Below are positions 351 through 56,046 of a DNA stretch of 64,000 bases, piece by piece. Every line of letters starts with the position of its first letter. The stretch's first letter is position 1. The notes beneath the pieces are model-generated. The model searched no databases. It was not told the origin of the DNA and saw only the letters and a program-made list of their open reading frames with translations. This stretch comes from an uncultured Gammaproteobacteria bacterium. GTDB taxonomy: Bacteria; Patescibacteriota; Microgenomatia; Daviesbacterales; UBA10151. Position numbers and translations under genes: made by a program. The stretch is from positions 257,520 to 321,519 of the forward strand of contig CAZCNP010000001.1 in assembly GCA_964500725.1 (NCBI GenBank), given 5' to 3'.

Positions 351-806
351 TTACTCTCCTAAAGCAACTCTCTCAAACCTACCCACCTGAATATTTTCTC
401 CTAATTTCCCTATCATTCCTTTAATTAACTGTTCTATAGTTTGAGAATTATCTCTGATATATTCCTGAGTTAATAGCTCTTCCAAAGATGAAGGGTTCAT
501 AGAAGCAATTTGCAAAGCTAACTCGTGGGCTAAATTTTTAAAATCATCTGTTCTGGCAACAAAATCTGTCTCACACAAAAGTTCTACTAAAACTCCAACT
601 TTGCCACTGTGAGAATAAACATCAACAATTCCTGCCTTAACTTCTCTTTCACCTTTTGAGGCAGCTTTATCAAAACCTTTTTTCCTCAAAATTTCTTTGG
701 CCTGCTCCATATCTCCGCCAGACTCATTTAAAGCTTCTTTACAATCAGCTATACCTGCTCCAGTCTGTCCACGAAGTTTTTTGATATCTTCAAGCGTTGT
801 AGCCAT
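351..806 (-). CDS. tsf: elongation factor Ts (short form, 151 aa)
   Basis: N-terminal UBA-like motif TLEDIKKLRGQTGAGIADCKEAL, then LCETDFVARTDDF; sits immediately downstream of rpsB. Confidence 0.9.
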   Translation of the reverse strand: MATTLEDIKKLRGQTGAGIADCKEALNESGGDMEQAKEILRKKGFDKAASKGEREVKAGIVDVYSHSGKVGVLVELLCETDFVARTDDFKNLAHELALQIASMNPSSLEELLTQEYIRDNSQTIEQLIKGMIGKLGENIQVGRFERVALGE

Positions 807-2077: not shown

Positions 2078-2548
2078 ATGGCTAAACTTAAGGTTAGAAG
2101 ATATAAAAAAGAAGATAATCCTATGGTTTGGCAGCTTCATAGGTTGGGTTTAGCAGAAATTGGTATAAAACCTACTAAAAACAGCCCTTGGGAAAAGGAC
2201 TTATATGATATAGAAAATGTGTATTTAAAAGATGGAGATTTTTTAGTTGGTGAATATGAAGGTAAGGTAGTAGCTATGGGAGCATTCAAGAAAAATTCAG
2301 ATGAAATATCAGAAACAAAAAGAATGAGAGTCCATCCAGATTATCAAAGACATGGATTTGGCACAGCAATTATTCAAGAATTAGAAAAAAGAGCTAAAAA
2401 GTTAGGTTTTAAAAAGATGATCTTAAATACCAGTGAAAAATGGATTAAAGCCCAAAGTTTTTATACCAAAAATGGTTATCAAGAAACTGGCAGGGAAGTT
2501 TTTGATAAAAAATACCATGCTATTTTTTATGAGAAAGAGTTGGAATAG
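2078..2548 (+). CDS. GNAT family N-acetyltransferase
   Basis: RMRVHPDYQRHGFGTAIIQELEKRAKKLGF is a GNAT motif A (Q/RxxGxG/A). Start placed at ATG 2078 (MAKLKV), in frame with track ORF 2009. Confidence 0.75.
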   Translation: MAKLKVRRYKKEDNPMVWQLHRLGLAEIGIKPTKNSPWEKDLYDIENVYLKDGDFLVGEYEGKVVAMGAFKKNSDEISETKRMRVHPDYQRHGFGTAIIQELEKRAKKLGFKKMILNTSEKWIKAQSFYTKNGYQETGREVFDKKYHAIFYEKELE

Positions 2549-2564
2549 ACTTACGTTAGAGATT

Positions 2565-3059
2565 TCATCTTTCTAGTTCCAAGAATTTATATTTAAACCC
2601 CTTAGATTCAAATTCTTCTGATTCCCAAACTACTTTTTTAAACTCTGAATAATCAGGAAAAACCGTATCTCCCTCAATTTCTGCCTGTATTTCAGTTATA
2701 TATAACTTATCAGCTTTAGATAAAGCTTGTTTATAAACCTCTCCTCCACCAATAATAAAAACCTCCTCACTTCCTTCCTTACCTCTTGCTTGTTGTAATG
2801 CTTCTTGCAAAGAATGAACAACAACACACCCTATTGCAGTATAGTTTGAAGAGGTTGTAATCACAATATTAGTTCTATCTGGCAAAGCTTTGCCAATAGA
2901 CTCATATGTTTTTCTACCCATAATAATTGGGTGACCATTAGTAATCTCTCTAAATCTTTTAAGCTCTCCAGGAATATACCAGGGCATACCACCTTTTTTA
3001 CCTATCACTCTTTTTTCCCCAGCTACAGCAACAATGATAGAGATTTTTGGCTTAATCAT
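2565..3059 (-). CDS. folA: dihydrofolate reductase
   Basis: ISIIVAVA..VIGKKGGMPWYIPGELKRFREITNGHPIIMGRKTYESIG and VFIIGGGEVY are DHFR signatures; directly downstream of thyA. Confidence 0.9.
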   Translation of the reverse strand: MIKPKISIIVAVAGEKRVIGKKGGMPWYIPGELKRFREITNGHPIIMGRKTYESIGKALPDRTNIVITTSSNYTAIGCVVVHSLQEALQQARGKEGSEEVFIIGGGEVYKQALSKADKLYITEIQAEIEGDTVFPDYSEFKKVVWESEEFESKGFKYKFLELER

Positions 3060-3062
3060 ATA

Positions 3063-4043
3063 TTAACCTGCCATCTTGCCTGTTTTGGGGTCATATAATC
3101 CTCCAGCTACAGTCAATTCTGCTTTTAATGCTGGATAAGGATCATAACCCTCTAAAGTAATGTATTCTGGTTCAAAATCATCTAAACTTTTAAAGTTGGT
3201 ATTGAATTTAACTTTAGGAAAAGGCTTGGGCTTCCTCTTAAGCTGCTCCTTAACTTGCTCTATATGATCTTCATAAATATGCACATCTCCAAAAGTATGA
3301 ATAAACTCACCTGGCTGCAATCCTGCTATTTTTGCCAAAATGAGGGTCAAAAGAGCATAACTTGCAATATTAAAAGGAACACCTAGAAATAAATCAGAGC
3401 TTCTTTGGTAAAGCTGTAAAGATAATTTTCCATTTCTATTGCTAACTTGGTACATATTATGGCAAATAGGAAAACGGGAAGCATCCTCATATGTGGCCAT
3501 GGTATATAAATATTCTGGATTCCAAGAATTTACTATTAAGTTTTTAGCATCTGGATCATCTTTTAACTCCTGCATTACCCATTTAAGCTGATCTATTGTT
3601 CTGCCTGGAGTTCTAGTGGGCCATTTCCTCCACATCTCTCCATAAATTCTGGGCAGTTCTCCATATTTTTTGGCAAATTCCTCATCAGTCCTAATTTTTT
3701 CTACAAATTCTTCTTTGGTAAGTTTAGTAACTTTTCCCTCTTCTGCTTTTTTGGAATAAATTTTATAAGGATAGTCATCCCAGATATGAACATTATTATC
3801 TACCAAATATTTAATATTTGTTTGTCCTGACATAAACCAGTAGAGCTCCTGAATAACTCCTTTCCAGTAGACCCTTTTAGTAGTTAGAAGAGGAAAACCA
3901 ACTGATAAATCATATCTGGTTTGCTTGCCAAATAAACTATACAGGACAATCCCTGTTCCTCTATCTACCTTTTTTATCCCTTTAGTTAAAGCTTCTTTTA
4001 AAAGATCTAAATATTGGTACTCTTGATGCTTTGGTCTTGGCAT
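3063..4043 (-). CDS. thyA: thymidylate synthase (ThyA, long form with insertion)
   Basis: FPLLTTKRVYWKGVIQELYWF, PICHNMYQ (active-site Cys), LQLYQRSSDLFLGVPFNIASYALL, FGDVHIY all align to ThyA. Confidence 0.95.
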   Translation of the reverse strand: MPRPKHQEYQYLDLLKEALTKGIKKVDRGTGIVLYSLFGKQTRYDLSVGFPLLTTKRVYWKGVIQELYWFMSGQTNIKYLVDNNVHIWDDYPYKIYSKKAEEGKVTKLTKEEFVEKIRTDEEFAKKYGELPRIYGEMWRKWPTRTPGRTIDQLKWVMQELKDDPDAKNLIVNSWNPEYLYTMATYEDASRFPICHNMYQVSNRNGKLSLQLYQRSSDLFLGVPFNIASYALLTLILAKIAGLQPGEFIHTFGDVHIYEDHIEQVKEQLKRKPKPFPKVKFNTNFKSLDDFEPEYITLEGYDPYPALKAELTVAGGLYDPKTGKMAG

Positions 4044-23232: not shown

Positions 23233-24300
23233 TTAAGCTTCCTTTTTTATCTCTTGAGCCAAATAGGGGTTCCACATAGCTCCTGTGGCACTCATTACTA
23301 TATCTGCTCCAGCTTGTTTATACTCAAAATAATCTTCTGACTTAGTAACTCCCCCCACTCCTATAACCAATATTTTTAATCTTTGATCTTTAATTTTTGA
23401 TTTTAATTTTCTCGCCATATCCAATCCCGCCCATCTAATAGCAGCTCCACATACTCCAGATTTTAACCTATTCTTTCCAGGCAAAGCTTGGTTACCATCT
23501 TTATCTACAATTTCTGCAGCTATGGTATTAATAGCAGCAATCCCTTGAGCATATTGAGAAGCAACTTCTACTAATCTTTTAATGTCTTCATCATTTTGAA
23601 AATAACCAACCTTAAGTACTAAGGGTGAATCTCCTAATTCTTCTCTTATGGCCTTACAAACTTTCCCTGTCATATCTAGGTTATAACAAACTAGCCCTTC
23701 ATTACCTATATTAGGACAAGATAAATTAGCCTCAAAAACTCTTGCCCCAGTTTGTTTTGATAACCTGGCAGCCTGCCTCCAATCCTCAATAAAATCTTGT
23801 TCAGTTTGGTTTTCTCTAACAGTCCCCATAAAAGATAAAACCAAAACTTGCCCTTTTCCAGCAAAAGATATAGCCTTTTTAACATCTTCCTGCCAAACAG
23901 ATGGGTCTTTGGATGGCACTCCAAATGAGTTAGTAATAGATAAAGGCTCAGGGTAATTTGTGTCTCCAATAAGTTTACCTTGGGCTTTCTCAAGGGTCAA
24001 ATCACCATCGACTTTTACAGATAAAATATTAGGATAAGGGTGTGAAGGAAAAACATTAGCCCTAACAGTTTTATAAACACAAATATCAAAGCCCTTTTCA
24101 AAAGCAGCTTTACAGAATTTAGAATTTAGAAGCGGTCCTGCTGGAATCCCAAAAGGAAGATATATTTTTTGACCAAAAAAGTCATACTCAGGTTCCCCTG
24201 TTTGCTCATACACTTGTCCGTCATTGAAGGCCCCAAAAGGACCATCATTGTAGTTATCCTCATAGCTTTTGTTCGGATCGTAAAAAGGAGTCTTTAACAT
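23233..24300 (-). CDS. pyrD: dihydroorotate dehydrogenase family protein
   Basis: TIM-barrel flavoenzyme motifs (IGVGGV..., NLSCPN) of the DHODH/DHPD family, in a pyrimidine biosynthesis context. Confidence 0.7.
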   Translation of the reverse strand: MLKTPFYDPNKSYEDNYNDGPFGAFNDGQVYEQTGEPEYDFFGQKIYLPFGIPAGPLLNSKFCKAAFEKGFDICVYKTVRANVFPSHPYPNILSVKVDGDLTLEKAQGKLIGDTNYPEPLSITNSFGVPSKDPSVWQEDVKKAISFAGKGQVLVLSFMGTVRENQTEQDFIEDWRQAARLSKQTGARVFEANLSCPNIGNEGLVCYNLDMTGKVCKAIREELGDSPLVLKVGYFQNDEDIKRLVEVASQYAQGIAAINTIAAEIVDKDGNQALPGKNRLKSGVCGAAIRWAGLDMARKLKSKIKDQRLKILVIGVGGVTKSEDYFEYKQAGADIVMSATGAMWNPYLAQEIKKEA

Positions 24301-24324
24301 AAGTAAATATTAACACAATTTAAA

Positions 24325-24954
24325 CTAACTTAAAATTTCCAAAAGCTCTTCTATATCATCTATTATAAAATCAGGATTATATTGAGCAATATCTTTACCT
24401 AAAAATCCATAAGTTACTCCCACAGTTTTCACCCCAGCATTTTTCCCAGCCAAAATATCATCACCTGTATCACCTACCATATAAGCATTTATTGGCTCTA
24501 CTCCTAATTTTCCAAGAGCAGTCAACACATGCTCTTTGTGTGGCTTTGGATTCTTTACATCATCAGCACTTACTACAACATCGAAGAACCTAGCAACTTT
24601 GGTAACTTTTAAAGAATACACAAGGCTATAACCCAACCTATTACTTACACCAGCCAACAAAAAGCCCTTATCTTTTAAAGTTTTAAGAACTTCTTTTGTA
24701 GCTTTAAATGGTTTAACTAAATGAAAATTTTCTTGTTGAAATTGTTTATGAGTTTCTGAAAGCTCTATCATGTTTCCCTCAGGAATTAGTGTTTGATAAA
24801 ATTCTAAGAGTGGCTTTCCTAAAGCTGTTTTGATATTTATATCAGAAGGGTAAGAATGATTATAAAAAGCAGTAGTATATTTTACAGCATCAAATACAAA
24901 ATTATAGGTATCTAAAAGCGTCCCATCAATATCAAAAAGAATTGCTTTTTCTAT
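24325..24954 (-). CDS. HAD-family hydrolase (start extended to an in-frame ATA overlapping the mreB stop codon)
   Basis: Track ORF 24325..24771 lacks HAD motif I, but the same frame upstream with no stop encodes (I)EKAILFDIDGTLLDT. ATA at 24954..24952 overlaps the mreB TAG as ATAG. C-terminal part carries GDTGDDILAGKNAG (motif IV). Confidence 0.6.
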   Translation of the reverse strand: MEKAILFDIDGTLLDTYNFVFDAVKYTTAFYNHSYPSDINIKTALGKPLLEFYQTLIPEGNMIELSETHKQFQQENFHLVKPFKATKEVLKTLKDKGFLLAGVSNRLGYSLVYSLKVTKVARFFDVVVSADDVKNPKPHKEHVLTALGKLGVEPINAYMVGDTGDDILAGKNAGVKTVGVTYGFLGKDIAQYNPDFIIDDIEELLEILS

Positions 24955-26015
24955 CTTAACCCTCCTGTTACTCTAACTTTGGAAAGCAGGTTTAAATTAT
25001 TTAATACCTCCCCACAACCTCTAGCAACAGTTGTTAAAGGATCATCAGCCACATACACTGGCAGTTTTGTTTCCTCTGCCAATCTTTTATCTAGACCTTT
25101 TAGCAATGCCCCTCCTCCTGCCAAATATATCCCTCTTTCTACTATATCAGTCAAAAGCTCAGGAGGAGTTTCTTCTAACACTCCTTGTACTGCTGAGATT
25201 ATTTGGGAAACTGTTGGAGATAAAGCTTCTCTTATTTCTGCTGTGGTAACTTTGATAGACTTTGGCAAACCATTTGCCAGCTCTCTACCTCTGACTACTG
25301 TTGCCATATTATCTTTGTCTTTTAATGGATAAGCTGAGCCAATTTCTATTTTGACATCCTCAGCAGTTCGCTCCCCTATTAACATCCCATACCTTATTCT
25401 CATATAATTGATAATATCCTCATCCAACTCATCTCCTGCTACCCTTAAAGATTTATTAATTACCATACCTCCTAAAGATATAACTGCCATTTCTGCTGTT
25501 CCCCCACCAATATCTACAATCATTACTCCTTCGGGGTCTTCTACTGGCAGCTTAGCCCCAATTGCTGCAGCCATTGGCTCTTCTATTAAATATGCTTCTC
25601 TGGCCCCTGCTGAAAGACAGGCATCCTGCACAGCCCTTCTTTCTACCTCAGTTACCCCTGAGGGGATACCAACTACCACCCTAGGTCTGGGGATTTTAGG
25701 TAAAGAAAAAAGACCCTTGCCAGGGTTTTCATGAACTTTATGGATAAAGTATCTCAGCATAGCTTCTGTGGTATCAAAATCAGAAATTACCCCATCTCTT
25801 AAAGGTCTTACTGCCTCAATTGCAGCAGGAGTTCTGCCTAACATTCTTTTTGCTTCAGTCCCAATTGCTAAAATTTGTCTGGTTTTTCTATGCAAAGCAA
25901 CAACAGTGGGCTCCCTAATTACAATACCTTTACCTTTGACCAACACCAGAGTATTAACAGTACCCAAATCTATACCAATATCATGAGAAACAAGTTGCCA
26001 GATCTTACCAAACAT
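24951..26015 (-). CDS. mreB: rod shape-determining protein MreB
   Basis: IGIDLGTVNTLV..., DIGGGTAEMAVIS, LAGGGALLKGLD are actin-fold ATPase motifs. Confidence 0.95.
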   Translation of the reverse strand: MFGKIWQLVSHDIGIDLGTVNTLVLVKGKGIVIREPTVVALHRKTRQILAIGTEAKRMLGRTPAAIEAVRPLRDGVISDFDTTEAMLRYFIHKVHENPGKGLFSLPKIPRPRVVVGIPSGVTEVERRAVQDACLSAGAREAYLIEEPMAAAIGAKLPVEDPEGVMIVDIGGGTAEMAVISLGGMVINKSLRVAGDELDEDIINYMRIRYGMLIGERTAEDVKIEIGSAYPLKDKDNMATVVRGRELANGLPKSIKVTTAEIREALSPTVSQIISAVQGVLEETPPELLTDIVERGIYLAGGGALLKGLDKRLAEETKLPVYVADDPLTTVARGCGEVLNNLNLLSKVRVTGGLR

Positions 26016-31664: not shown

Positions 31665-32180
31665 ATGGAAGTGGTTAAAGCACCTGACCCTAGACTTAGG
31701 GTCCAAACTAAACCTGTTAAAAAAATAAACAACGGCTTGGTCCAAATTACCAAAGATATGGTAAAACTAACCAAAACCTTCAAAGACCCTCAAGGAGTAG
31801 GTTTGGCTTCTACCCAGGTAGGGCTTGATGGAGCCTTTTTTGTGGCTAAAAATGGGGAAAAATTTATATCTGTTGTAAACCCTAAAATTTTATCCACAGG
31901 CAAAAGAACTAAAAAATATTTTGAAGGATGCTTGTCTGTGCCTAATATGTGGGGGGAGGTTAGCAGGTATTTACAGATTAAAGTTTCTTATCAAGACTTA
32001 ACAGGAAAAACCATCACCAAATCTATCAAAGGAGTTTTAGCCTGGATTTTTCAACACGAGATAGATCATCTAAATGGGGTGTTATTTTCAGATAAGGTTT
32101 TGCAGCAACAAGGCAAGTTCTATAAATTTACTGGCAAAGATAAAACAGGCACAGATACATTCCAAGAGGTGACAATATAA
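31665..32180 (+). CDS. def: peptide deformylase
   Basis: GVGLASTQVG, EGCLSVP and HEIDHLNG are the three PDF motifs. Confidence 0.95.
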   Translation: MEVVKAPDPRLRVQTKPVKKINNGLVQITKDMVKLTKTFKDPQGVGLASTQVGLDGAFFVAKNGEKFISVVNPKILSTGKRTKKYFEGCLSVPNMWGEVSRYLQIKVSYQDLTGKTITKSIKGVLAWIFQHEIDHLNGVLFSDKVLQQQGKFYKFTGKDKTGTDTFQEVTI

Positions 32181-32896
32181 ACTCAAAGTTTAAAATAATT
32201 TTTCTGGGAACACCTGATTTTGTTAAACCAATAAGGGATGTTCTTGATAAACATTTTACTTTGGTAGACTCCCTACCCGAAGCTGATCTGGCAGTAGTTG
32301 CAGCTTATGGCAAGATTCTTACTACAGAGGAGCTAAATACCCCAAAATATGGTTGTATCAATATTCACCCCTCATTACTACCAAAATATAGAGGCCCCTC
32401 ACCCATTCAGTCAACCATTTTAAATGGAGATAAATTTTCTGGTATTTCTATTATTAAAATGGATAAGGAAGTGGATCATGGTCCAATAATTTATCAGGAG
32501 CAATTAGAGCTTTCTAGTAGTGATACTTTTGATACTTTGAGTAAAAAAATGTTTCTTAAATCTGCAGAGGTTTTACCTAAAATAATTACTGAGTTTATAG
32601 AAGGAAAAATTAAACCAGAACCTCAAAACCACCAATTAGCTACTTATTGCAATCAATTAACCAGAGAGAGTGGTTATTTTGATATCAATAAACCCCCATC
32701 TACTGAAATTTTAGATAGAATGATTAGGGCTTACTTCCCTTGGCCAGGGGTCTGGTGTAAATGGAAAATGGATAATGGACAATTGAAAATTGTTAAGTTT
32801 CTACCAGGCAAGAAGATTCAAATGGAAGGTAAGAAAGTAATGCCTTTAAAAGATTTTGCAAACGGATATCCTAATTTTCCTCTGAAAAGTATTTAA
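32177..32896 (+). CDS. fmt: methionyl-tRNA formyltransferase (start extended to ATA overlapping the def stop codon; track ORF begins at TTG 32261)
   Basis: In frame upstream of 32261 with no stop: (I)NSKFKIIFLGTPDFVKPIRDVL, the canonical Fmt N-terminus (cf. MSESLRIIFAGTPDFA). ATA 32177-79 overlaps def TAA 32178-80 as ATAA. Downstream formyl-transferase core HPSLLPKYRGPSPIQ. Confidence 0.65.
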   Translation: MNSKFKIIFLGTPDFVKPIRDVLDKHFTLVDSLPEADLAVVAAYGKILTTEELNTPKYGCINIHPSLLPKYRGPSPIQSTILNGDKFSGISIIKMDKEVDHGPIIYQEQLELSSSDTFDTLSKKMFLKSAEVLPKIITEFIEGKIKPEPQNHQLATYCNQLTRESGYFDINKPPSTEILDRMIRAYFPWPGVWCKWKMDNGQLKIVKFLPGKKIQMEGKKVMPLKDFANGYPNFPLKSI

Positions 32897-34967: not shown

Positions 34968-35541
34968 AATTGCACCCTCAAATGGTGCTATCTAAATATA
35001 TCATATTTTTCCCTTAAAATGTCATCCTGAGCAGAGGGCATTCGTTCCTCAATTACTAACGTAATTGTAAGAATTTAGCCTCAAGGGTCTTGACAAAAGG
35101 AGGCTTTTATGGTTAAGATAGAAATATCCTTTAAGACATTGTAGATGGCCTAAAGGACTTAGGCTCTGCCTAATCCCTACTTAGCACGTTTAAAGCCAAT
35201 ATATTTTTCTTCACTGATTTGTTACTTTACGGGAGTCTGGAGTGTGTTATAAAGCAACTGCCTAAACACCAGGACACCCACCTTAGGTTTTCCTGAGGAA
35301 AAACATTGGCTAAACGACTTTAAGTAGGGAGAAATTATTCTGTTTTTCAGTGTAATTTCTGGAAACCGCTTACCATTATGTGGCGGTTCTTCCAGTTATC
35401 CCAACCTTCTGTTTAATTCCCACTAATTTTGGTAAAATATACATTGTGCCGGTGTAGCATAAATGGATTATGCAGTGCTTTTGTAAAGCACAGACTATCG
35501 GATCATACCCGATCACCGGCTCATAATAATTTATATGCCTC

Positions 35542-38955: not shown

Positions 38956-39729
38956 TTAGGGTTTGTAATTAGGGTAAAAATATTGCCATTCCATATTTTT
39001 GATACTTTGTTGAAAATCCTCAGGTATAGGTGCTTGTATAGTTCTCATATTTAATTTGATAGGATGTTGGAAAGTCAGTTCAAAAGCATGCAACATAGTT
39101 CTAGTAGCTCTAATAGCATCTCCACAATATAAGTAATCTCCCACAATAGGGTGTTTTAGATAGTCTGCTGAAACAACCCTAATTTGGTGGGTTCTACCAG
39201 TAACAATCTGCACCTCAGTTAAAGTTCTTATTCGTCCTTCGCCATCTTTTAAGCAAACAAGGGGTTTAAAAAAGGTGATTGAGTTTTTAGCTCCTGGAGG
39301 AATAAAACCTCTACCCGATTGTTCTGGTGTAACGATCTGCATTCTTTCAGTTTGAGTTGGAGCAATTGGTAATTCCGCTTTAAAAGGCTCTTTAAAATCC
39401 AATTCGCCTTCTAAAATCGCCAGATAGATCTTTCTCATGTTGGATCCTGCTTTGTTGGCAAATTGATCAAACAGCGAGATAAAAGCGGGACGAGTTTTGG
39501 AAAAAACCATTACACCTGTGGTATCTCTATCTAATCTGTTAGCTCGTTGCGTATTCCAACCTCTTAAGTGCTTTGCAATTTCTTCTATTCCAACTGGATT
39601 TACTTCTGAGTAATGAGAAGCAATGCCAGCGGGTTTGTTAATAATCAAAACATCCTGATCTTCATAGAGTACATGTTTATCAAAAGCATTAAGGAATTCC
39701 CAGGCTAATTGGTCTCTACCTGCAAGCAT
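38956..39729 (-). CDS. RluA-family pseudouridine synthase
   Basis: NRLDRDTTGVMVFSKT (catalytic Asp motif) and HQIRVVSADYLKHPIVGD. Confidence 0.8.
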   Translation of the reverse strand: MLAGRDQLAWEFLNAFDKHVLYEDQDVLIINKPAGIASHYSEVNPVGIEEIAKHLRGWNTQRANRLDRDTTGVMVFSKTRPAFISLFDQFANKAGSNMRKIYLAILEGELDFKEPFKAELPIAPTQTERMQIVTPEQSGRGFIPPGAKNSITFFKPLVCLKDGEGRIRTLTEVQIVTGRTHQIRVVSADYLKHPIVGDYLYCGDAIRATRTMLHAFELTFQHPIKLNMRTIQAPIPEDFQQSIKNMEWQYFYPNYKP

Positions 39730-39856
39730 TATATCAGGGTTGCCACCCCTGCGGTTGATTTGATCAAGTAACCATCTGTTAAAATCCTCAGTTGTAGTAG
39801 GATGACCTAGAAGCTCTCCAGAGGCTGAAAAAATAATAGTTCTTTTTGAGGAAATC

Positions 39857-41038
39857 TCAGCTGGATTTTTTTTCCCAACCTGCAGCTAACAATTCTTTAA
39901 CTTGCTTATTTGTTGCAAGAGGAGCTAGTACCCCAAAAACTACTAAAGCATCTTGGTCTTCAACATTAGCAACAAAGGTATTTTGTTTATCTTCTACAAA
40001 CCTAGTCAGTTTTGCTTGCAGAACTGCTTTACTGCGTTCATCTGAAGAACTTTCAACTTGATTGTTTAGGCTGTCTTGAATGCGTTGTAATTCTTCTTTG
40101 TCATCAGCTTTGATTGCAATTCCTAGTTTTTGTAAAATCTTTTGATCTACTTCCCCAAGCAGCCTACTTAAACGGTAAATTTCTGCTTTAGTTAATATTG
40201 GATCCACTTCCAAAACTTCTTGAGTAGGCGCTTCTTCTGGAGTTTGAGTTTGAATTTCAGAAGCATCAGGCTGTGCTATTTCATTAGGTGTGAATATAAT
40301 AGAACCTGAACTCTGAGCAGGTTCTGGTGATTTTGCTGGCAGAGTTACAATAGGTGTCTCAGCTGATTTTTTCGCTTTTGCTGGTCTTGGAGCTTGTTCC
40401 TTTGCTTTTGCGATTGGGATAGATGTGGCTGCTGCGGACTTGATGGACTCAACAGGCTTTGGTTCAAGGGTATAAGTAGCCTTTTCAGTCATATTGGAAG
40501 ACCTGATAGTAGCAATAGTATATCCTTGATCTACCAGTTTTGGTCTGATATTAGTTAAAAGAAGATTAGTATTGTTCTTAGAAATACCTAAGGCCTCAGC
40601 CAATTCAACATTAGTTGGTCTTTTAGTGGGGTTTGATAAAAACCAATCTACCATTTGTGTCTCTCTGGGACTTAAACCGGTGAAGATTGGTTTTACTACT
40701 GGCATTGATGTTTCAACAGGACTCTCTGGAACTGGTGCAGTACTAACAATTGGAGCGGTAGGATGTTCTTCTGGCTTGGTGACTTGGGGTATGGATCTTC
40801 CTAGGTAATCTTCAGCGGGTGGTTCTATACCCAGTCTTTTTCTGATTAAATTATTTATTTCTGGAACTATAACGTCTATTTGTCTAGCTGCTTTAATCTC
40901 TGAACGGACTTGAGTAGCCAGCGTTTCAGCTTCATCAATTCTTCCTTCTCTTAAAAGAACAGCACTTTGTTCAGATAACTGAGAGGCCCTGATCATTCTT
41001 TCTTGCTTAACAGTAAATAGAATTCTTTCAATAGCCAT
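39857..41038 (-). CDS. hypothetical protein with central Pro/Ala-rich linker and HTH-like segment
   Basis: MVDWFLSNPTKRPTNVELAEALGISKNNTNLLL looks like an HTH; low-complexity PA-rich middle; no catalytic motif recognised. Confidence 0.4.
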   Translation of the reverse strand: MAIERILFTVKQERMIRASQLSEQSAVLLREGRIDEAETLATQVRSEIKAARQIDVIVPEINNLIRKRLGIEPPAEDYLGRSIPQVTKPEEHPTAPIVSTAPVPESPVETSMPVVKPIFTGLSPRETQMVDWFLSNPTKRPTNVELAEALGISKNNTNLLLTNIRPKLVDQGYTIATIRSSNMTEKATYTLEPKPVESIKSAAATSIPIAKAKEQAPRPAKAKKSAETPIVTLPAKSPEPAQSSGSIIFTPNEIAQPDASEIQTQTPEEAPTQEVLEVDPILTKAEIYRLSRLLGEVDQKILQKLGIAIKADDKEELQRIQDSLNNQVESSSDERSKAVLQAKLTRFVEDKQNTFVANVEDQDALVVFGVLAPLATNKQVKELLAAGWEKKSS

Positions 41039-54729: not shown

Positions 54730-56046
54730 ATGCCTCAAAAATCTCCTCCAGAGGAGCATCATGATCATGGAATATTAAAATTTCCTGAAGGGTTTTTATG
54801 GGGGGCTGCTACTTCTGCCCATCAAGTTGAAGGGGAAAATATTAACAGTGACTGGTGGACCTGGGAGCAAAAAAAGCCCTCTCATCTTCATTCAGGCAAA
54901 GCCTGTGACCAATATAATCTTTATGAACAGGACTTCGAACTGGCAAAACAACTTAACCATAATGCCCATAGGTTATCTATCGAATGGTCCAGGATTGAAC
55001 CCAAAGAAGGTGAATTTAATGAGGAGGGAATCCAGCATTATGTGAAAGTATTGAAGTGTTTAAAATCCCTTAATATGACTGTCATGCTAACACTCTGGCA
55101 CTTTACACTCCCTACCTGGCTGGCAGATAAAGGTGGTTGGGAAAATGAAAAAACTCCTTTCTATTTTGAAAGGTTTGTTAAAAAAATAACCCCATTTATA
55201 GGTTCCTATGTTGATTTGTGGGTAACTTTAAATGAACCAGGAGTGTATGTTTATGAAGGATATGTTAGAAGAGAATGGCCTCCCGCCAAAAAAAGCTGGC
55301 TTGGGCAACTTAGAACCTTTTTTAACTTAGTTGCTGCCCACAGGAGAGTTTATAAATATTTACATTCTGTTTATCCTGCAGGCAAACCTGTTGGTATTGC
55401 CAACAATATTTTATCTTTTGAATCTTTCCACAAACACTCTATCAAAGAACAGATTGCTGTATGGGCAAATGACCTTTTTGTGAACCACTTGTTTTATATG
55501 TTTACTAAAAATACCCATGATTTCTTAGGAATTAATTACTACTTTCATGTTCGTTTCAAGGATAAGGAGCTAGTCCCCCAAGCCAAAGATATTACTGGAT
55601 ATATTCATGAGGTCTCAGACTTAGGCTGGGAGATTTACCCTGAAGGAATTTTTGAAGTTTTGACTGATCTGGCAGATGATATACCTATTTATATTACTGA
55701 ATGTGGCATTGCCTCAACTAATGATGACAGAAGGAATAGATTTTTGATTTCTTATTTACAAGAAGTAGCCAGAGCTATCAAAGCAGGAGTCAACGTCAGA
55801 GGCTTTTTCTACTGGTCGCTGTTAGATAACTTTGAATGGCACCTGGGATTTGACCCCAAGTTTGGCCTGGTAGAAGTTGACTACAAAACCCAAAAAAGGC
55901 ATATCCGGCCTTCTGCTTTAGTTTATACAGATATTATTCAAAATAACGGTATTCCTCATGCCCTGCTTCGCTTTATCGGCCACACTGTCCAGGCAGAAGA
56001 AGTATTGGAAAAAAGACAAAAAGAGATAGAAAAAGAGCTGAAATAA
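54730..56046 (+). CDS. glycoside hydrolase family 1 beta-glucosidase
   Basis: FLWGAATSAHQVEG, TLNEP (acid/base Glu), ITECGIA (nucleophile Glu). Confidence 0.9.
   Translation: MPQKSPPEEHHDHGILKFPEGFLWGAATSAHQVEGENINSDWWTWEQKKPSHLHSGKACDQYNLYEQDFELAKQLNHNAHRLSIEWSRIEPKEGEFNEEGIQHYVKVLKCLKSLNMTVMLTLWHFTLPTWLADKGGWENEKTPFYFERFVKKITPFIGSYVDLWVTLNEPGVYVYEGYVRREWPPAKKSWLGQLRTFFNLVAAHRRVYKYLHSVYPAGKPVGIANNILSFESFHKHSIKEQIAVWANDLFVNHLFYMFTKNTHDFLGINYYFHVRFKDKELVPQAKDITGYIHEVSDLGWEIYPEGIFEVLTDLADDIPIYITECGIASTNDDRRNRFLISYLQEVARAIKAGVNVRGFFYWSLLDNFEWHLGFDPKFGLVEVDYKTQKRHIRPSALVYTDIIQNNGIPHALLRFIGHTVQAEEVLEKRQKEIEKELK

What the first reader, a model, noticed from the sequence alone, without database searches (positions are those of the whole stretch)
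32177..32263. fmt begins at an ATA codon overlapping the def stop (ATAA); the conserved N-terminus lies upstream of the first canonical start
The first canonical start (TTG 32261) would give an Fmt that lacks its universally conserved N-terminal I-I-F-x-G-T-P-D-F nucleotide-binding segment. That segment is encoded in frame upstream (…NSKFKIIFLGTPDFVKPIRDVL) with no stop back to ATA 32177-79. That ATA overlaps the def TAA as ATAA, exactly analogous to the common ATGA coupled overlap, and it leaves 6 residues before IIF as in E. coli Fmt. No ATG, GTG or TTG is available there. The simplest reading is AUA initiation, probably by termination-reinitiation coupling.
Basis: partly seen in the sequence, partly recalled or inferred. 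Interest (0 to 1): 0.6.

Follow-up and report, generated by a model that had tools for sequence, protein, structure and literature searches.

The report
fmt gene starts at ATA codon
In this uncultivated Daviesbacteria genome the gene for methionyl-tRNA formyltransferase very probably starts at the rare start codon ATA, which overlaps the stop codon of the gene before it; a second gene in the same window does the same, so public annotation cuts such proteins short.

Summary
In the fmt frame (open 32144-32896) there is no ATG, GTG or TTG before TTG 32261. The conserved Fmt N-terminus (KIIFLGTPDF...) lies upstream of that TTG. ATA 32177-79 overlaps the def stop TAA 32178-80.

The AUA-start reading is well supported, though only by comparison:
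- The 23 codons upstream of the TTG are under strong purifying selection (dN/dS about 0.1).
- They form the first strand and helix of the fold.
- The ATA sits exactly where relatives have ATG or TTG overlapping the def stop (ATGA, TTGA).
- A 7-nt Shine-Dalgarno match (GAGGTGA) lies 4 nt upstream, in a window where only 4 of 58 genes have a match of 5 nt or more.

A second gene in the window has the same architecture: a HAD hydrolase with AGGAGG, 6 nt, then ATA overlapping the mreB stop as ATAG. That ATA aligns with the start Met of 15/15 homologues. Five independent per-run assemblies reproduce it, and at least four other lineages show ATAA at the same junction. GenBank already starts that HAD at ATA but truncates fmt.

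Internal ATA codons still read as Ile. AUA starts with extended SD are known in S. aureus, so this is a new member of a known kind. Whether initiation is by reinitiation or de novo is unresolved.

The parts
31665..32180 (+). def (peptide deformylase) CDS. Its last codons, GAG GTG ACA ATA TAA, carry the SD-like motif and the stop that overlaps the fmt start.
   Evidence: PF01327 143.5 bits; ORF list; syntenic def-fmt pairs in relatives.
32166..32172 (+). Shine-Dalgarno-like GAGGTGA. It matches 7 contiguous nt of the canonical SD string TAAGGAGGTGATC and lies 4 nt upstream of the ATA.
   Evidence: Only 0.34% of window positions have a match of 7 nt or more at 3-12 nt upstream. Relative L088 has the same motif at the same distance from its TTG start.
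32177..32179 (+). Proposed fmt start codon ATA (AUA), overlapping the def stop as ATAA.
   Evidence: Sequence. It occupies the position of ATG/TTG in the ATGA/TTGA junctions of L001, L089, L092, L088 and L108/L109. P0029 starts M-N-S where the window reads (I)-N-S.
32178..32180 (+). def stop codon TAA.
32177..32896 (+). Revised fmt CDS, 239 codons plus stop: a short-form methionyl-tRNA formyltransferase.
   Evidence: PF00551 106 bits and PF02911 32 bits. TIGR00460 189.5 bits. Homologues of 228-248 aa cover 96-100% of it. AlphaFold mean pLDDT 84.
32180..32191 (+). Four codons AAC TCA AAG TTT (N S K F) between the ATA and the consensus K-I-I-F. They are absent from the ATGA/TTGA-type relatives. 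TTT 32189-91 aligns with the Met of most homologues.
32192..32260 (+). Conserved N-terminal segment KIIFLGTPDFVKPIRDVLDKHFT (strand 1 and helix 1), upstream of the first canonical start.
   Evidence: dN 0.08-0.29 against dS 0.8 to over 2 versus ten relatives. Aligns to residues 2-22 of solved Fmt structures. Strand 6-12 and helix 14-26 in the model.
32261..32263 (+). TTG: the first canonical start and the start used in GenBank (211-aa product). It is probably just an internal Leu codon.
   Evidence: It aligns with a nearly invariant Leu column.
24951..26015 (-). mreB CDS, the upstream partner in the second case. Stop TAG at 24953-24951.
   Evidence: PF06723 464 bits; sequence.
24961..24966 (-). 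Shine-Dalgarno AGGAGG, 6 nt upstream of the HAD ATA. The ATG-type relative L169 has TGGTGG here, differing by synonymous changes in mreB.
24325..24954 (-). HAD-IA hydrolase CDS starting at ATA 24954-24952, which overlaps the mreB stop as ATAG. This is the second ATA-start gene in the window.
   Evidence: The ATA aligns with the start Met of 15/15 homologues. The full HAD_2 domain (1-178/178, 135 bits) is obtained only from the ATA. Relative L169 has ATGA here. Five Logan assemblies are identical to the window here. GenBank MBI4035807.1 is 209 aa and begins MEKAILFD.

Best explanation
Translation of fmt starts at AUA 32177-79, read by initiator tRNA as (f)Met. The product is a 239-residue short-form methionyl-tRNA formyltransferase.

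Two features probably help the weak codon. One is a 7-nt SD match (GAGGUGA) inside the end of def, 4 nt upstream. The other is its position on top of the def stop (AUAA), so ribosomes finishing def are already on the site.

The arrangement is the AT-shifted version of the common ATGA overlap. One G-to-A change turns ATGA into ATAA. That keeps the upstream stop (TGA becomes TAA) and downgrades the start (ATG becomes ATA). In these AT-rich genomes (37% GC) this has happened repeatedly.

Shown here: the anatomy, the coding status of the N-terminal segment, the homology of the position, and the parallel HAD case. Inferred: that AUA is the codon actually used, that SD and/or reinitiation make it work, and how much protein results.
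For: 1. No canonical start exists in the open frame 32144-32260.
2. The 23 codons before TTG 32261 are under strong purifying selection. Against the nearest relative L084, dN is 0.10 and dS 0.93. Nine further relatives give similar values.
3. These codons align with residues 2-22 of solved Fmt structures and form strand 6-12 and helix 14-26 of a confident model. A TTG product would lack both.
4. Relatives L001, L089 and L092 have ATGA, and L088 and L108/L109 have TTGA, at the def-fmt junction. The window's ATA lies at that exact position. In L088 the same GAGGTGA sits at the same distance.
5. The SD match is exceptional. Only 4 of 58 first canonical starts in the window have a match of 5 nt or more. 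Background frequency is 1.4% of positions for 6 nt or more and 0.34% for 7 nt or more.
6. An unbiased look at ORFs with long open stretches before their first canonical start found a second case, the HAD hydrolase. It has AGGAGG, 6 nt, then ATA overlapping the mreB stop. Its catalytic DxDGT motif lies 54 codons upstream of the first ATG.
7. That ATA aligns with the start Met of 15/15 homologues. It corresponds to ATGA in relative L169, whose junction region is 94% identical.
8. The HAD junction is reproduced exactly in five per-run Logan assemblies, so it is not an assembly or base-call error.
9. ATAA at the same mreB-HAD junction occurs in at least four other lineages: P0220, P0228/P0244, P0216 and P0196. 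Three of them carry GGAGG and one GGGGG. Where compared (window, P0220, P0228), each is closer to Met-starting homologues than to the other ATA lineages.
10. Internal ATA codons align with Ile, Val or Leu. Only the start ATA aligns with Met.
11. There is a precedent. AUA starts at S. aureus infC, ccpN and citZ, each with an extended SD, gave roughly 10-30% of AUG activity in reporters (PMC13009471).
Against: - There is no ribosome-profiling, proteomic or reporter evidence.
- For fmt, the ATA appears in no other lineage among about 115 loci. I saw no independent assembly of this site. No Logan contig carries the 211-aa product.
- The SD-like GAGGTGA is also simply the coding sequence for the conserved Def C-terminus (E-V-T). 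It is present in L084, where fmt starts 22 nt further on at an ATG. Its presence is therefore not by itself evidence of selection for an SD.
- The organism's 16S 3' end is not in the window, so the anti-SD is assumed.
- Most homologues place their Met four codons downstream, aligned with TTT 32189-91.
- Predicted RNA structure around the site is no different from shuffled sequence, so it gives no support for an unfolding-type coupling.
Confidence: 0.8

Rival explanations
1. Initiation occurs at another near-cognate codon in the open stretch, not at ATA 32177. The candidates are ATT 32159, ATA 32195, ATT 32198 and CTG 32204.
For: All four are in frame and upstream of or within the conserved strand. 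ATA 32195 and ATT 32198 lie just downstream of the position (TTT 32189-91) where most homologues place their Met.
Against: None of the four has an SD-like match of 5 nt or more at 3-12 nt upstream. None overlaps a stop. Starting at 32195, 32198 or 32204 would shorten or remove part of strand 1. ATT 32159 would add six unconserved residues read from inside def. The HAD precedent in the same genome points to the SD-plus-ATA-over-stop architecture.
Confidence: 0.07
2. The ATA, or the lack of a canonical start, is a sequencing or assembly error in this metagenome-assembled genome. The real sequence would have ATG at 32177, or TTG at 32189.
For: Only one assembly of this site was seen, and it is identical to L081. 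No Logan contig carries the same product. A single base change would restore a start at either position.
Against: The same assembly is reproduced base for base across 24095-25962 by five independent per-run assemblies, including the other ATA start. Two random errors hitting two start codons, each next to one of the rare strong SDs, within 64 kb is very unlikely. A second contig of 385,984 bases is on record with the same 211-aa call, which implies it too lacks an upstream canonical start. I did not see its sequence.
Confidence: 0.06
3. fmt here is translated only from TTG 32261 or is a young pseudogene. The start codon was lost recently and the upstream segment has not yet decayed.
For: GenBank and Prodigal-type callers use the TTG. 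Loss of fmt is tolerated in some bacteria (general knowledge, not tested here).
Against: The frame is intact for 239 codons. Every invariant or nearly invariant N-terminal residue is kept. dN/dS is about 0.1 with near-saturated dS, so any loss would have to be very recent. def is intact next door. TTG 32261 has no SD. A TTG product lacks strand 1 and helix 1.
Confidence: 0.05
4. A -1 ribosomal frameshift near the end of def produces a Def-Fmt fusion protein.
For: The fmt frame is the -1 frame of def and is open from 32144. A strong SD lies upstream. A relative (L010) encodes def and fmt as one continuous ORF.
Against: There is no slippery X XXY YYZ heptamer at GUG ACA AUA UAA. Every ATGA-type overlap has this same frame relation, and in those relatives the genes are separate. 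The HAD case needs no such mechanism.
Confidence: 0.02

Closest known systems
AUA/AUU start codons with extended Shine-Dalgarno in Firmicutes (S. aureus infC AUA, ccpN AUA, citZ AUA, cvfC1 AUU; PMC13009471) and E. coli infC/pcnB AUU
   Same: A near-cognate AUN start where no canonical codon can give the conserved N-terminus. A long, correctly spaced SD accompanies the weak codon. The expected consequence is reduced initiation.
   Different: Here the organism is a CPR/Patescibacteria bacterium whose genes mostly lack SD-like motifs. The AUA overlaps the upstream stop codon. There is no experimental mapping. The fmt ATA is so far confined to one genome rather than conserved across a genus.
Translational coupling at -4 overlaps (NTGA), by termination-reinitiation (PMC6728339, PMC12548453)
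   Same: Two genes on the same strand share four bases between stop and start, with an SD inside the 3' end of the upstream gene. Homologous junctions in relatives are the canonical ATGA or TTGA.
   Different: The shared tetranucleotide is ATAA (or ATAG), so the restart codon is non-canonical. Neither paper, as far as I read them, treats non-NTG restart codons. Coupling itself is untested here.
Methionyl-tRNA formyltransferase (E. coli Fmt, PDB 1FMT/2FMT)
   Same: Formyl_trans_N catalytic core and N-terminal IIFxGTPDF strand. The gene lies next to def.
   Different: This is a short form of 239 aa. It lacks about 50 residues corresponding to E. coli 23-75. From my knowledge of E. coli Fmt, not tested here, that stretch includes the tRNA-contacting insertion loop. 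Only part of the C-terminal domain matches. The score is below the TIGR00460 cut-off.

Membership tests
Methionyl-tRNA formyltransferase (Fmt; TIGR00460, PF00551 + PF02911) | Formyl_trans_N catalytic domain with the N-I-H-P-S-L-L-P / Asp core | tested here: met
   PF00551 106 bits, profile positions 79-180. The INIHPSLLPKYRG block is invariant among homologues.
Methionyl-tRNA formyltransferase (Fmt; TIGR00460, PF00551 + PF02911) | N-terminal strand and loop (I/V)(I/V)F(x)GTP(x)F | tested here: met
   Present only if translation starts upstream of TTG 32261. Aligns to residues 2-22 of 4IQF and 1FMT. Strand 6-12 in the model.
Methionyl-tRNA formyltransferase (Fmt; TIGR00460, PF00551 + PF02911) | Score at or above the curated equivalog cut-off | tested here: not met
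   TIGR00460 gives 189.5 bits against a cut-off of 201.5, even with the ATA start. This follows from the short form. Close homologues are nevertheless named Fmt by NCBI.
Methionyl-tRNA formyltransferase (Fmt; TIGR00460, PF00551 + PF02911) | Region corresponding to E. coli residues about 23-75, which holds the insertion loop that contacts initiator tRNA (loop location from my own knowledge of E. coli Fmt) | tested here: not met
   Query residues 24-28 bridge chain residues 23-75 of 1FMT, so about 50 residues are absent. This holds for the whole Daviesbacteria family.
Methionyl-tRNA formyltransferase (Fmt; TIGR00460, PF00551 + PF02911) | Formylation of Met-tRNAfMet | not testable with these tools
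   Inferred from homology and the conserved def-fmt pairing.
SD-assisted non-canonical (AUA) bacterial start codon | No ATG/GTG/TTG can produce the conserved N-terminus | tested here: met
   fmt. HAD.
SD-assisted non-canonical (AUA) bacterial start codon | Strong or extended SD at functional spacing | tested here: met
   fmt has GAGGTGA plus 4 nt. HAD has AGGAGG plus 6 nt. Such motifs are rare in this window. The anti-SD of this organism was not available.
SD-assisted non-canonical (AUA) bacterial start codon | The non-canonical codon sits at the position of the start codon of homologues, and is conserved or recurrent | tested here: met
   HAD: aligns with Met in 15/15 homologues and recurs as ATAA in at least four other lineages. 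fmt: positional homology to ATGA/TTGA junctions, but found in this genome only.
SD-assisted non-canonical (AUA) bacterial start codon | Direct evidence of initiation (initiation-arrest ribosome profiling, N-terminal peptides, reporters) | not testable with these tools
   Uncultivated organism; no such data were accessible.
Translational coupling by termination-reinitiation at a -4 overlap | Stop and start on the same strand sharing four bases | tested here: met
   ATAA at 32177-32180 and ATAG at 24954-24951.
Translational coupling by termination-reinitiation at a -4 overlap | Downstream translation depends on upstream translation | not testable with these tools
   Needs reporter constructs with premature stops in def or mreB.
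AUA reassigned from Ile to Met (as in some mitochondrial codes) | Internal AUA codons fall at conserved Met positions | tested here: not met
   The 11 internal ATA codons of fmt and HAD align mostly with Ile, Val or Leu, or fall in variable columns. None aligns with a Met-dominated column.
Programmed -1 frameshift fusion | Slippery heptamer at the shift site | tested here: not met
   GUG ACA AUA UAA has no X XXY YYZ pattern.

The most novel reading that the evidence does not exclude
AUA may be a regularly tolerated restart codon at -4 gene overlaps in Daviesbacteria, and perhaps more widely in AT-rich CPR bacteria. AT-biased mutation would repeatedly convert ATGA into ATAA or ATAG, because the upstream stop survives the change. 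Ribosomes terminating on the overlap, held by a strong internal SD, would still start there. That would define a systematic and largely unannotated class of start sites. It would also suggest relaxed start-codon discrimination during reinitiation, or an altered IF3 or initiator tRNA, in these organisms. The enzyme that formylates initiator tRNA would be one of the genes expressed this way.
Probability: 0.3. Interest if true: 0.65.

Novelty: new member of a known kind. Interest (0 to 1): 0.5.

Why it matters
1. Annotation. The GenBank Fmt of this genome (MBI4035800.1) is 28 residues short and is labelled hypothetical. The same error removes the catalytic Asp motif from HAD hydrolases in several public Microgenomates records, which start 13 to over 40 residues late.
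2. Mechanism. The repeated ATGA-to-ATAA change gives a simple evolutionary route to non-canonical starts. One transition leaves the upstream stop intact. This predicts where else to look for them: -4 overlaps in AT-rich genomes.
3. Shine-Dalgarno use. In a window that otherwise rarely shows SD-like motifs, two of the strongest matches sit in front of the two AUA starts. That fits the idea that the SD matters most for weak or restart codons.
4. Limits. None of this overturns known biology. AUA starts with extended SD are already documented experimentally in S. aureus.

Tried and rejected
- AUA-to-Met reassignment: rejected, because internal ATA codons align with Ile, Val or Leu.
- -1 frameshift Def-Fmt fusion: rejected for lack of a slippery site, although a relative (L010) has a genuine fused ORF.
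- RNA structure that hides the SD or start, as in an unfolding-type coupling: the folds of both junctions are no better than shuffles (z = -1.5 and +0.7).
- Other window ORFs with long open stretches before the first canonical start. For def (34 codons) and the gene at 56046 (33 codons), the stretch overlaps the preceding gene. The pseudouridine synthase at 38956-39729 (52 codons) fits its ATG, because the Pfam domain begins 25 residues after it.
- A relaxed scan of about 760 kb of fetched loci for SD plus a near-cognate codon gave 28 hits. By eye these are shadow frames, mostly in higher-GC genomes, and none is a real gene.
- An ATA-over-stop scan of about 775 kb found only the HAD junctions as non-trivial cases.
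- HAD homologue P0208 (L176) turned out to be a rearranged N-terminus, not an ATA start.
- I first read the window's HAD ATA as very recent, because the protein is 97% identical to the ATG-type P0121. That was wrong. The identity comes from a roughly 600-bp tract of 99-100% identity that begins just downstream of the start codon. The junction itself lies in the roughly 80%-identity background.
- Hecht et al. [quoted passage not shown]
- A literature search for non-canonical start codons in the Candidate Phyla Radiation found nothing.
- Rfam found only a tRNA in the window. No infC, initiator tRNA or 16S gene turned up in the parts of the window I annotated.
Full report
**What is there.** The window comes from a Candidatus Daviesbacteria metagenome-assembled genome. 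A 6.6-kb locus from GCA_016198315.1, contig JACQIW010000013.1, is identical to it. Its GC content is 37%.

- def (PF01327) occupies 31665-32180 and ends GAG GTG ACA ATA TAA.
- In the -1 frame relative to def, an open stretch runs from 32144 to the stop at 32894-96. It encodes a formyltransferase (PF00551 106 bits, PF02911 32 bits).
- The first ATG, GTG or TTG in that frame is TTG 32261.
- Upstream of it the frame reads ...GDN-I-NSKFKIIFLGTPDFVKPIRDVLDKHFT. The Ile codon ATA at 32177-79 overlaps the def stop TAA 32178-80.

The only amendment is that the frame is open 11 codons further back than stated. It also holds other near-cognate codons: ATT 32159, ATA 32195, ATT 32198 and CTG 32204.

GenBank starts the protein at the TTG and calls it a 211-aa hypothetical protein (MBI4035800.1).

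**Is the upstream segment really coding?** Three lines of evidence say yes.

- Homologues in the 5.8-billion-protein collection are 228-248 aa and cover 96-100% of the ATA-started protein. They nearly all begin M-K-(I/V)-x-F-L-G-T-P.
- Of about 115 fmt loci recovered from genomes and metagenomes, this window is the only one with no canonical start upstream of the motif. In nearly all the others it lies 2-6 codons before the motif.
- For the 23 codons between the consensus Lys and the TTG, comparison with ten relatives gives dN 0.08-0.29 against dS 0.8 to over 2. For the nearest relative, L084, dN is 0.10 and dS 0.93. With synonymous sites near saturation, this segment has been under purifying selection for essentially the whole time since divergence.

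Structure agrees. The segment aligns with residues 2-22 of solved Fmt structures. In an AlphaFold model (mean pLDDT 84) it forms strand 6-12 and helix 14-26. A product starting at the TTG (residue 29) would lack the first strand and helix of the domain.

**Why ATA 32177 rather than another codon?**

- *Position.* The def-fmt junction of relatives is often a 4-nt overlap. L001, L089 and L092 have ...AT ATG A.. (ATGA). L088 and L108/L109 have TTGA. Aligned on the end of def, the window reads ACAAT-ATA-A where L001 reads ACAAT-ATG-A and L088 reads ACGAT-TTG-A. Four extra codons (N S K F) then precede the common K-I-I-F. Homologue P0029 begins M-N-S where the window has (I)-N-S.
- *Shine-Dalgarno.* GAGGTGA at 32166-72 matches seven contiguous bases of the canonical SD string and lies 4 nt before the ATA. 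L088 has the same motif at the same distance from its TTG. None of the other near-cognate codons has an SD-like match of 5 nt or more.
- *Rarity of such motifs.* Only 4 of 58 first canonical starts in the window have a match of 5 nt or more. Only 0.34% of positions have a match of 7 nt or more, and 1.4% a match of 6 nt or more, at 3-12 nt upstream.

**A second, better documented case in the same window.** I listed every large ORF by the length of open frame before its first canonical start. One stood out: a minus-strand gene at 24325-24771 with 67 open codons upstream.

- Those codons encode the HAD nucleophile motif (KAILFDIDGTL).
- The DNA reads ACAGGAGGGTTAAG-ATA-G. That is AGGAGG, 6 nt, then ATA at 24954-52 overlapping the mreB stop TAG at 24953-51.
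- The ATA aligns with the start Met of 15 of 15 homologues.
- Only from the ATA is the full HAD_2 domain recovered: 1-178/178 at 135 bits, against 66-178 from the ATG.
- Relative L169 has ATGA at the same spot. There the motif is TGGTGG instead of AGGAGG, through synonymous differences in mreB.
- Five per-run Logan assemblies from five SRA runs are base-for-base identical to window 24095-25962, including the ATAG.
- NCBI's own annotation of this contig gives this protein 209 residues beginning MEKAILFD (MBI4035807.1). That is a start at the ATA.

A mechanical scan of the window looked for ATA, ATT, ATC or CTG upstream of the first canonical start, with an SD of 5 nt or more, in open frames of 100 codons or more. 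It returned exactly these two genes plus one 40-codon hit that I take to be spurious.

**Recurrence elsewhere.** Among the 120 listed HAD homologues, six were called without the N-terminal DxDG motif. I retrieved the DNA for five of them.

| Lineage | Loci | Sources | Junction |
|---|---|---|---|
| P0220 | L170-172 | one NCBI, two Logan assemblies | GGAGG..ATAA |
| P0228/P0244 | L173-175 | 14 and 35 contigs on record | AGGAGGT..ATAA |
| P0216 | L177 | ENA | GGAGGT..ATAA |
| P0196 | L178 | Logan | GGGGGT..ATAA |
| P0208 | L176 | NCBI | rearranged N-terminus, not an ATA start |

 The sixth, P0190, was not retrieved.

All four ATA lineages keep the N-terminal motif in frame after the ATA. Where I compared them (window, P0220, P0228), each is closer to Met-starting homologues than to the other ATA lineages. 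P0220 and P0228 are only 52% identical to each other. The change has therefore arisen several times.

A single G-to-A transition converts ATGA to ATAA. The upstream stop is preserved (TGA becomes TAA) while the start becomes ATA. This explains why such starts accumulate at -4 overlaps in AT-rich genomes.

**Alternatives considered.**

- *AUA reassigned to Met.* Excluded. The 11 internal ATA codons of fmt and HAD fall mostly in Ile, Val or Leu columns, or in variable ones. None falls in a Met-dominated column.
- *A -1 frameshift fusing Def to Fmt.* This would use the same frame relation, but there is no slippery heptamer, and ATGA-type relatives have separate genes. A genuine fused def-fmt ORF does exist in the distant relative L010.
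- *Sequence error at the fmt start.* This cannot be formally excluded, because I saw only one assembly of that site. However, the assembly is verified at the other ATA start, and two independent errors of this specific kind in 64 kb are implausible.
- *A recent pseudogene.* This is hard to square with the dN/dS, the intact 239-codon frame and the intact def.

**Mechanism: what is shown and what is inferred.**

- *Shown:* the anatomy, the positional homology, selection on the N-terminal segment, and recurrence and reproducibility for HAD.
- *Inferred:* that initiator tRNA reads the AUA, and that the SD and/or the overlapping stop make this efficient enough.

I cannot separate termination-reinitiation from SD-driven de novo initiation. 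Predicted RNA structure around both sites is unremarkable.

The literature fits both. AUA starts with extended SD are experimentally established in S. aureus (infC, ccpN, citZ), at roughly 10-30% of AUG activity (PMC13009471). Intragenic SD motifs often matter for reinitiation at overlapping genes, in some groups more than for de novo initiation (PMC6728339). The -4 NTGA overlap is the commonest coupling arrangement (PMC12548453). I found no paper linking non-canonical starts with the Candidate Phyla Radiation.

**Verdict.** fmt here most probably starts at ATA 32177 (confidence about 0.8). It is a new member of a known kind, SD-assisted AUA initiation, in a new setting: a CPR bacterium, on top of the upstream stop, arising recurrently from ATGA. 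The practical result is a corrected 239-aa Fmt and a rule for finding similar truncated annotations.

Noticed in passing
window 24325-24954 (-), with mreB 24951-26015 (-): A second ATA-start gene: a HAD-IA hydrolase whose ATA overlaps the mreB stop (ATAG), preceded by AGGAGG. Gene callers that allow only ATG/GTG/TTG start it 61 codons late and lose the DxDGT nucleophile motif.
   Followed up: yes
window about 24340-24940 versus L169 (GCA_964415615.1): The body of the HAD gene is 99-100% identical to that of another Daviesbacteria genome, while both flanks are about 75-85% identical, with sharp boundaries. Five independent assemblies reproduce the mosaic, so it looks like a recent recombination or gene-conversion tract rather than a chimera. 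The left boundary lies just downstream of the ATA start.
   Followed up: partly
window 32177-32896 (+) and the whole Daviesbacteria Fmt family (alignment A1/A4): These Fmt proteins are short forms (about 230-240 aa). They lack roughly 50 residues corresponding to E. coli Fmt 23-75, and only part of the C-terminal domain matches. From my knowledge of E. coli Fmt (not tested here), the missing stretch holds the insertion loop that contacts initiator tRNA. TIGR00460 scores 189.5 against a cut-off of 201.5. How they recognise initiator tRNA is open.
   Followed up: partly
L010, about 2242-3579: In a relative (46% identity; MAG CAZXPY010000002.1), def and fmt run in a single open reading frame with no stop between them. 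This is an apparent natural Def-Fmt fusion.
   Followed up: no
L088 1950-2672: The fmt of this relative (P0010, 79% identity) was called from an internal ATG. Its real start is almost certainly the TTG that overlaps the def TGA (TTGA), with GAGGTGA upstream. So canonical TTG starts at overlaps are also missed by the gene caller.
   Followed up: partly
whole window (58 ORFs of 90 aa or more): Shine-Dalgarno-like motifs are rare. Only 4 of 58 first canonical starts have a match of 5 nt or more at 3-12 nt upstream. One of them is rpsB (810-1661), with GAGGTGA. Start assignment here was crude (first canonical codon).
   Followed up: partly
L170-L178 (mreB-HAD junctions of other Microgenomates): Public records of HAD hydrolases in several lineages (for example EKD85293.1 and KKQ75815.1, named 'pyrophosphatase PpaX') are 196 aa and lack the catalytic N-terminus, because their start is ATA overlapping the mreB TAA. 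One record in the same 90% cluster (HCE30808.1) is 209 aa, with the N-terminus restored.
   Followed up: partly
L176 68-712: One HAD homologue (P0208) has its N-terminal about 25 residues replaced by unrelated sequence (PNLFFAQVFSGFVWAGF...). This is a rearrangement or a contig chimera, not an ATA start.
   Followed up: no
window 38956-39885 (-): A pseudouridine synthase gene has 52 open codons upstream of its ATG. The Pfam domain starts 25 residues after the ATG and no SD-plus-near-cognate site is present, so this looks like chance openness.
   Followed up: partly
window 35448-35522 (+): ARAGORN calls a tRNA-Thr(TGT) here, but the Rfam tRNA model at gathering threshold did not report it. Only tRNA-Trp at 52513-52586 was found by both.
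   Followed up: no
window 351-806 (-): The EF-Ts gene is only 151 aa, and its Pfam match covers just positions 1-76 of the 204-position EF_TS model. This is another shortened translation factor in this genome.
   Followed up: no
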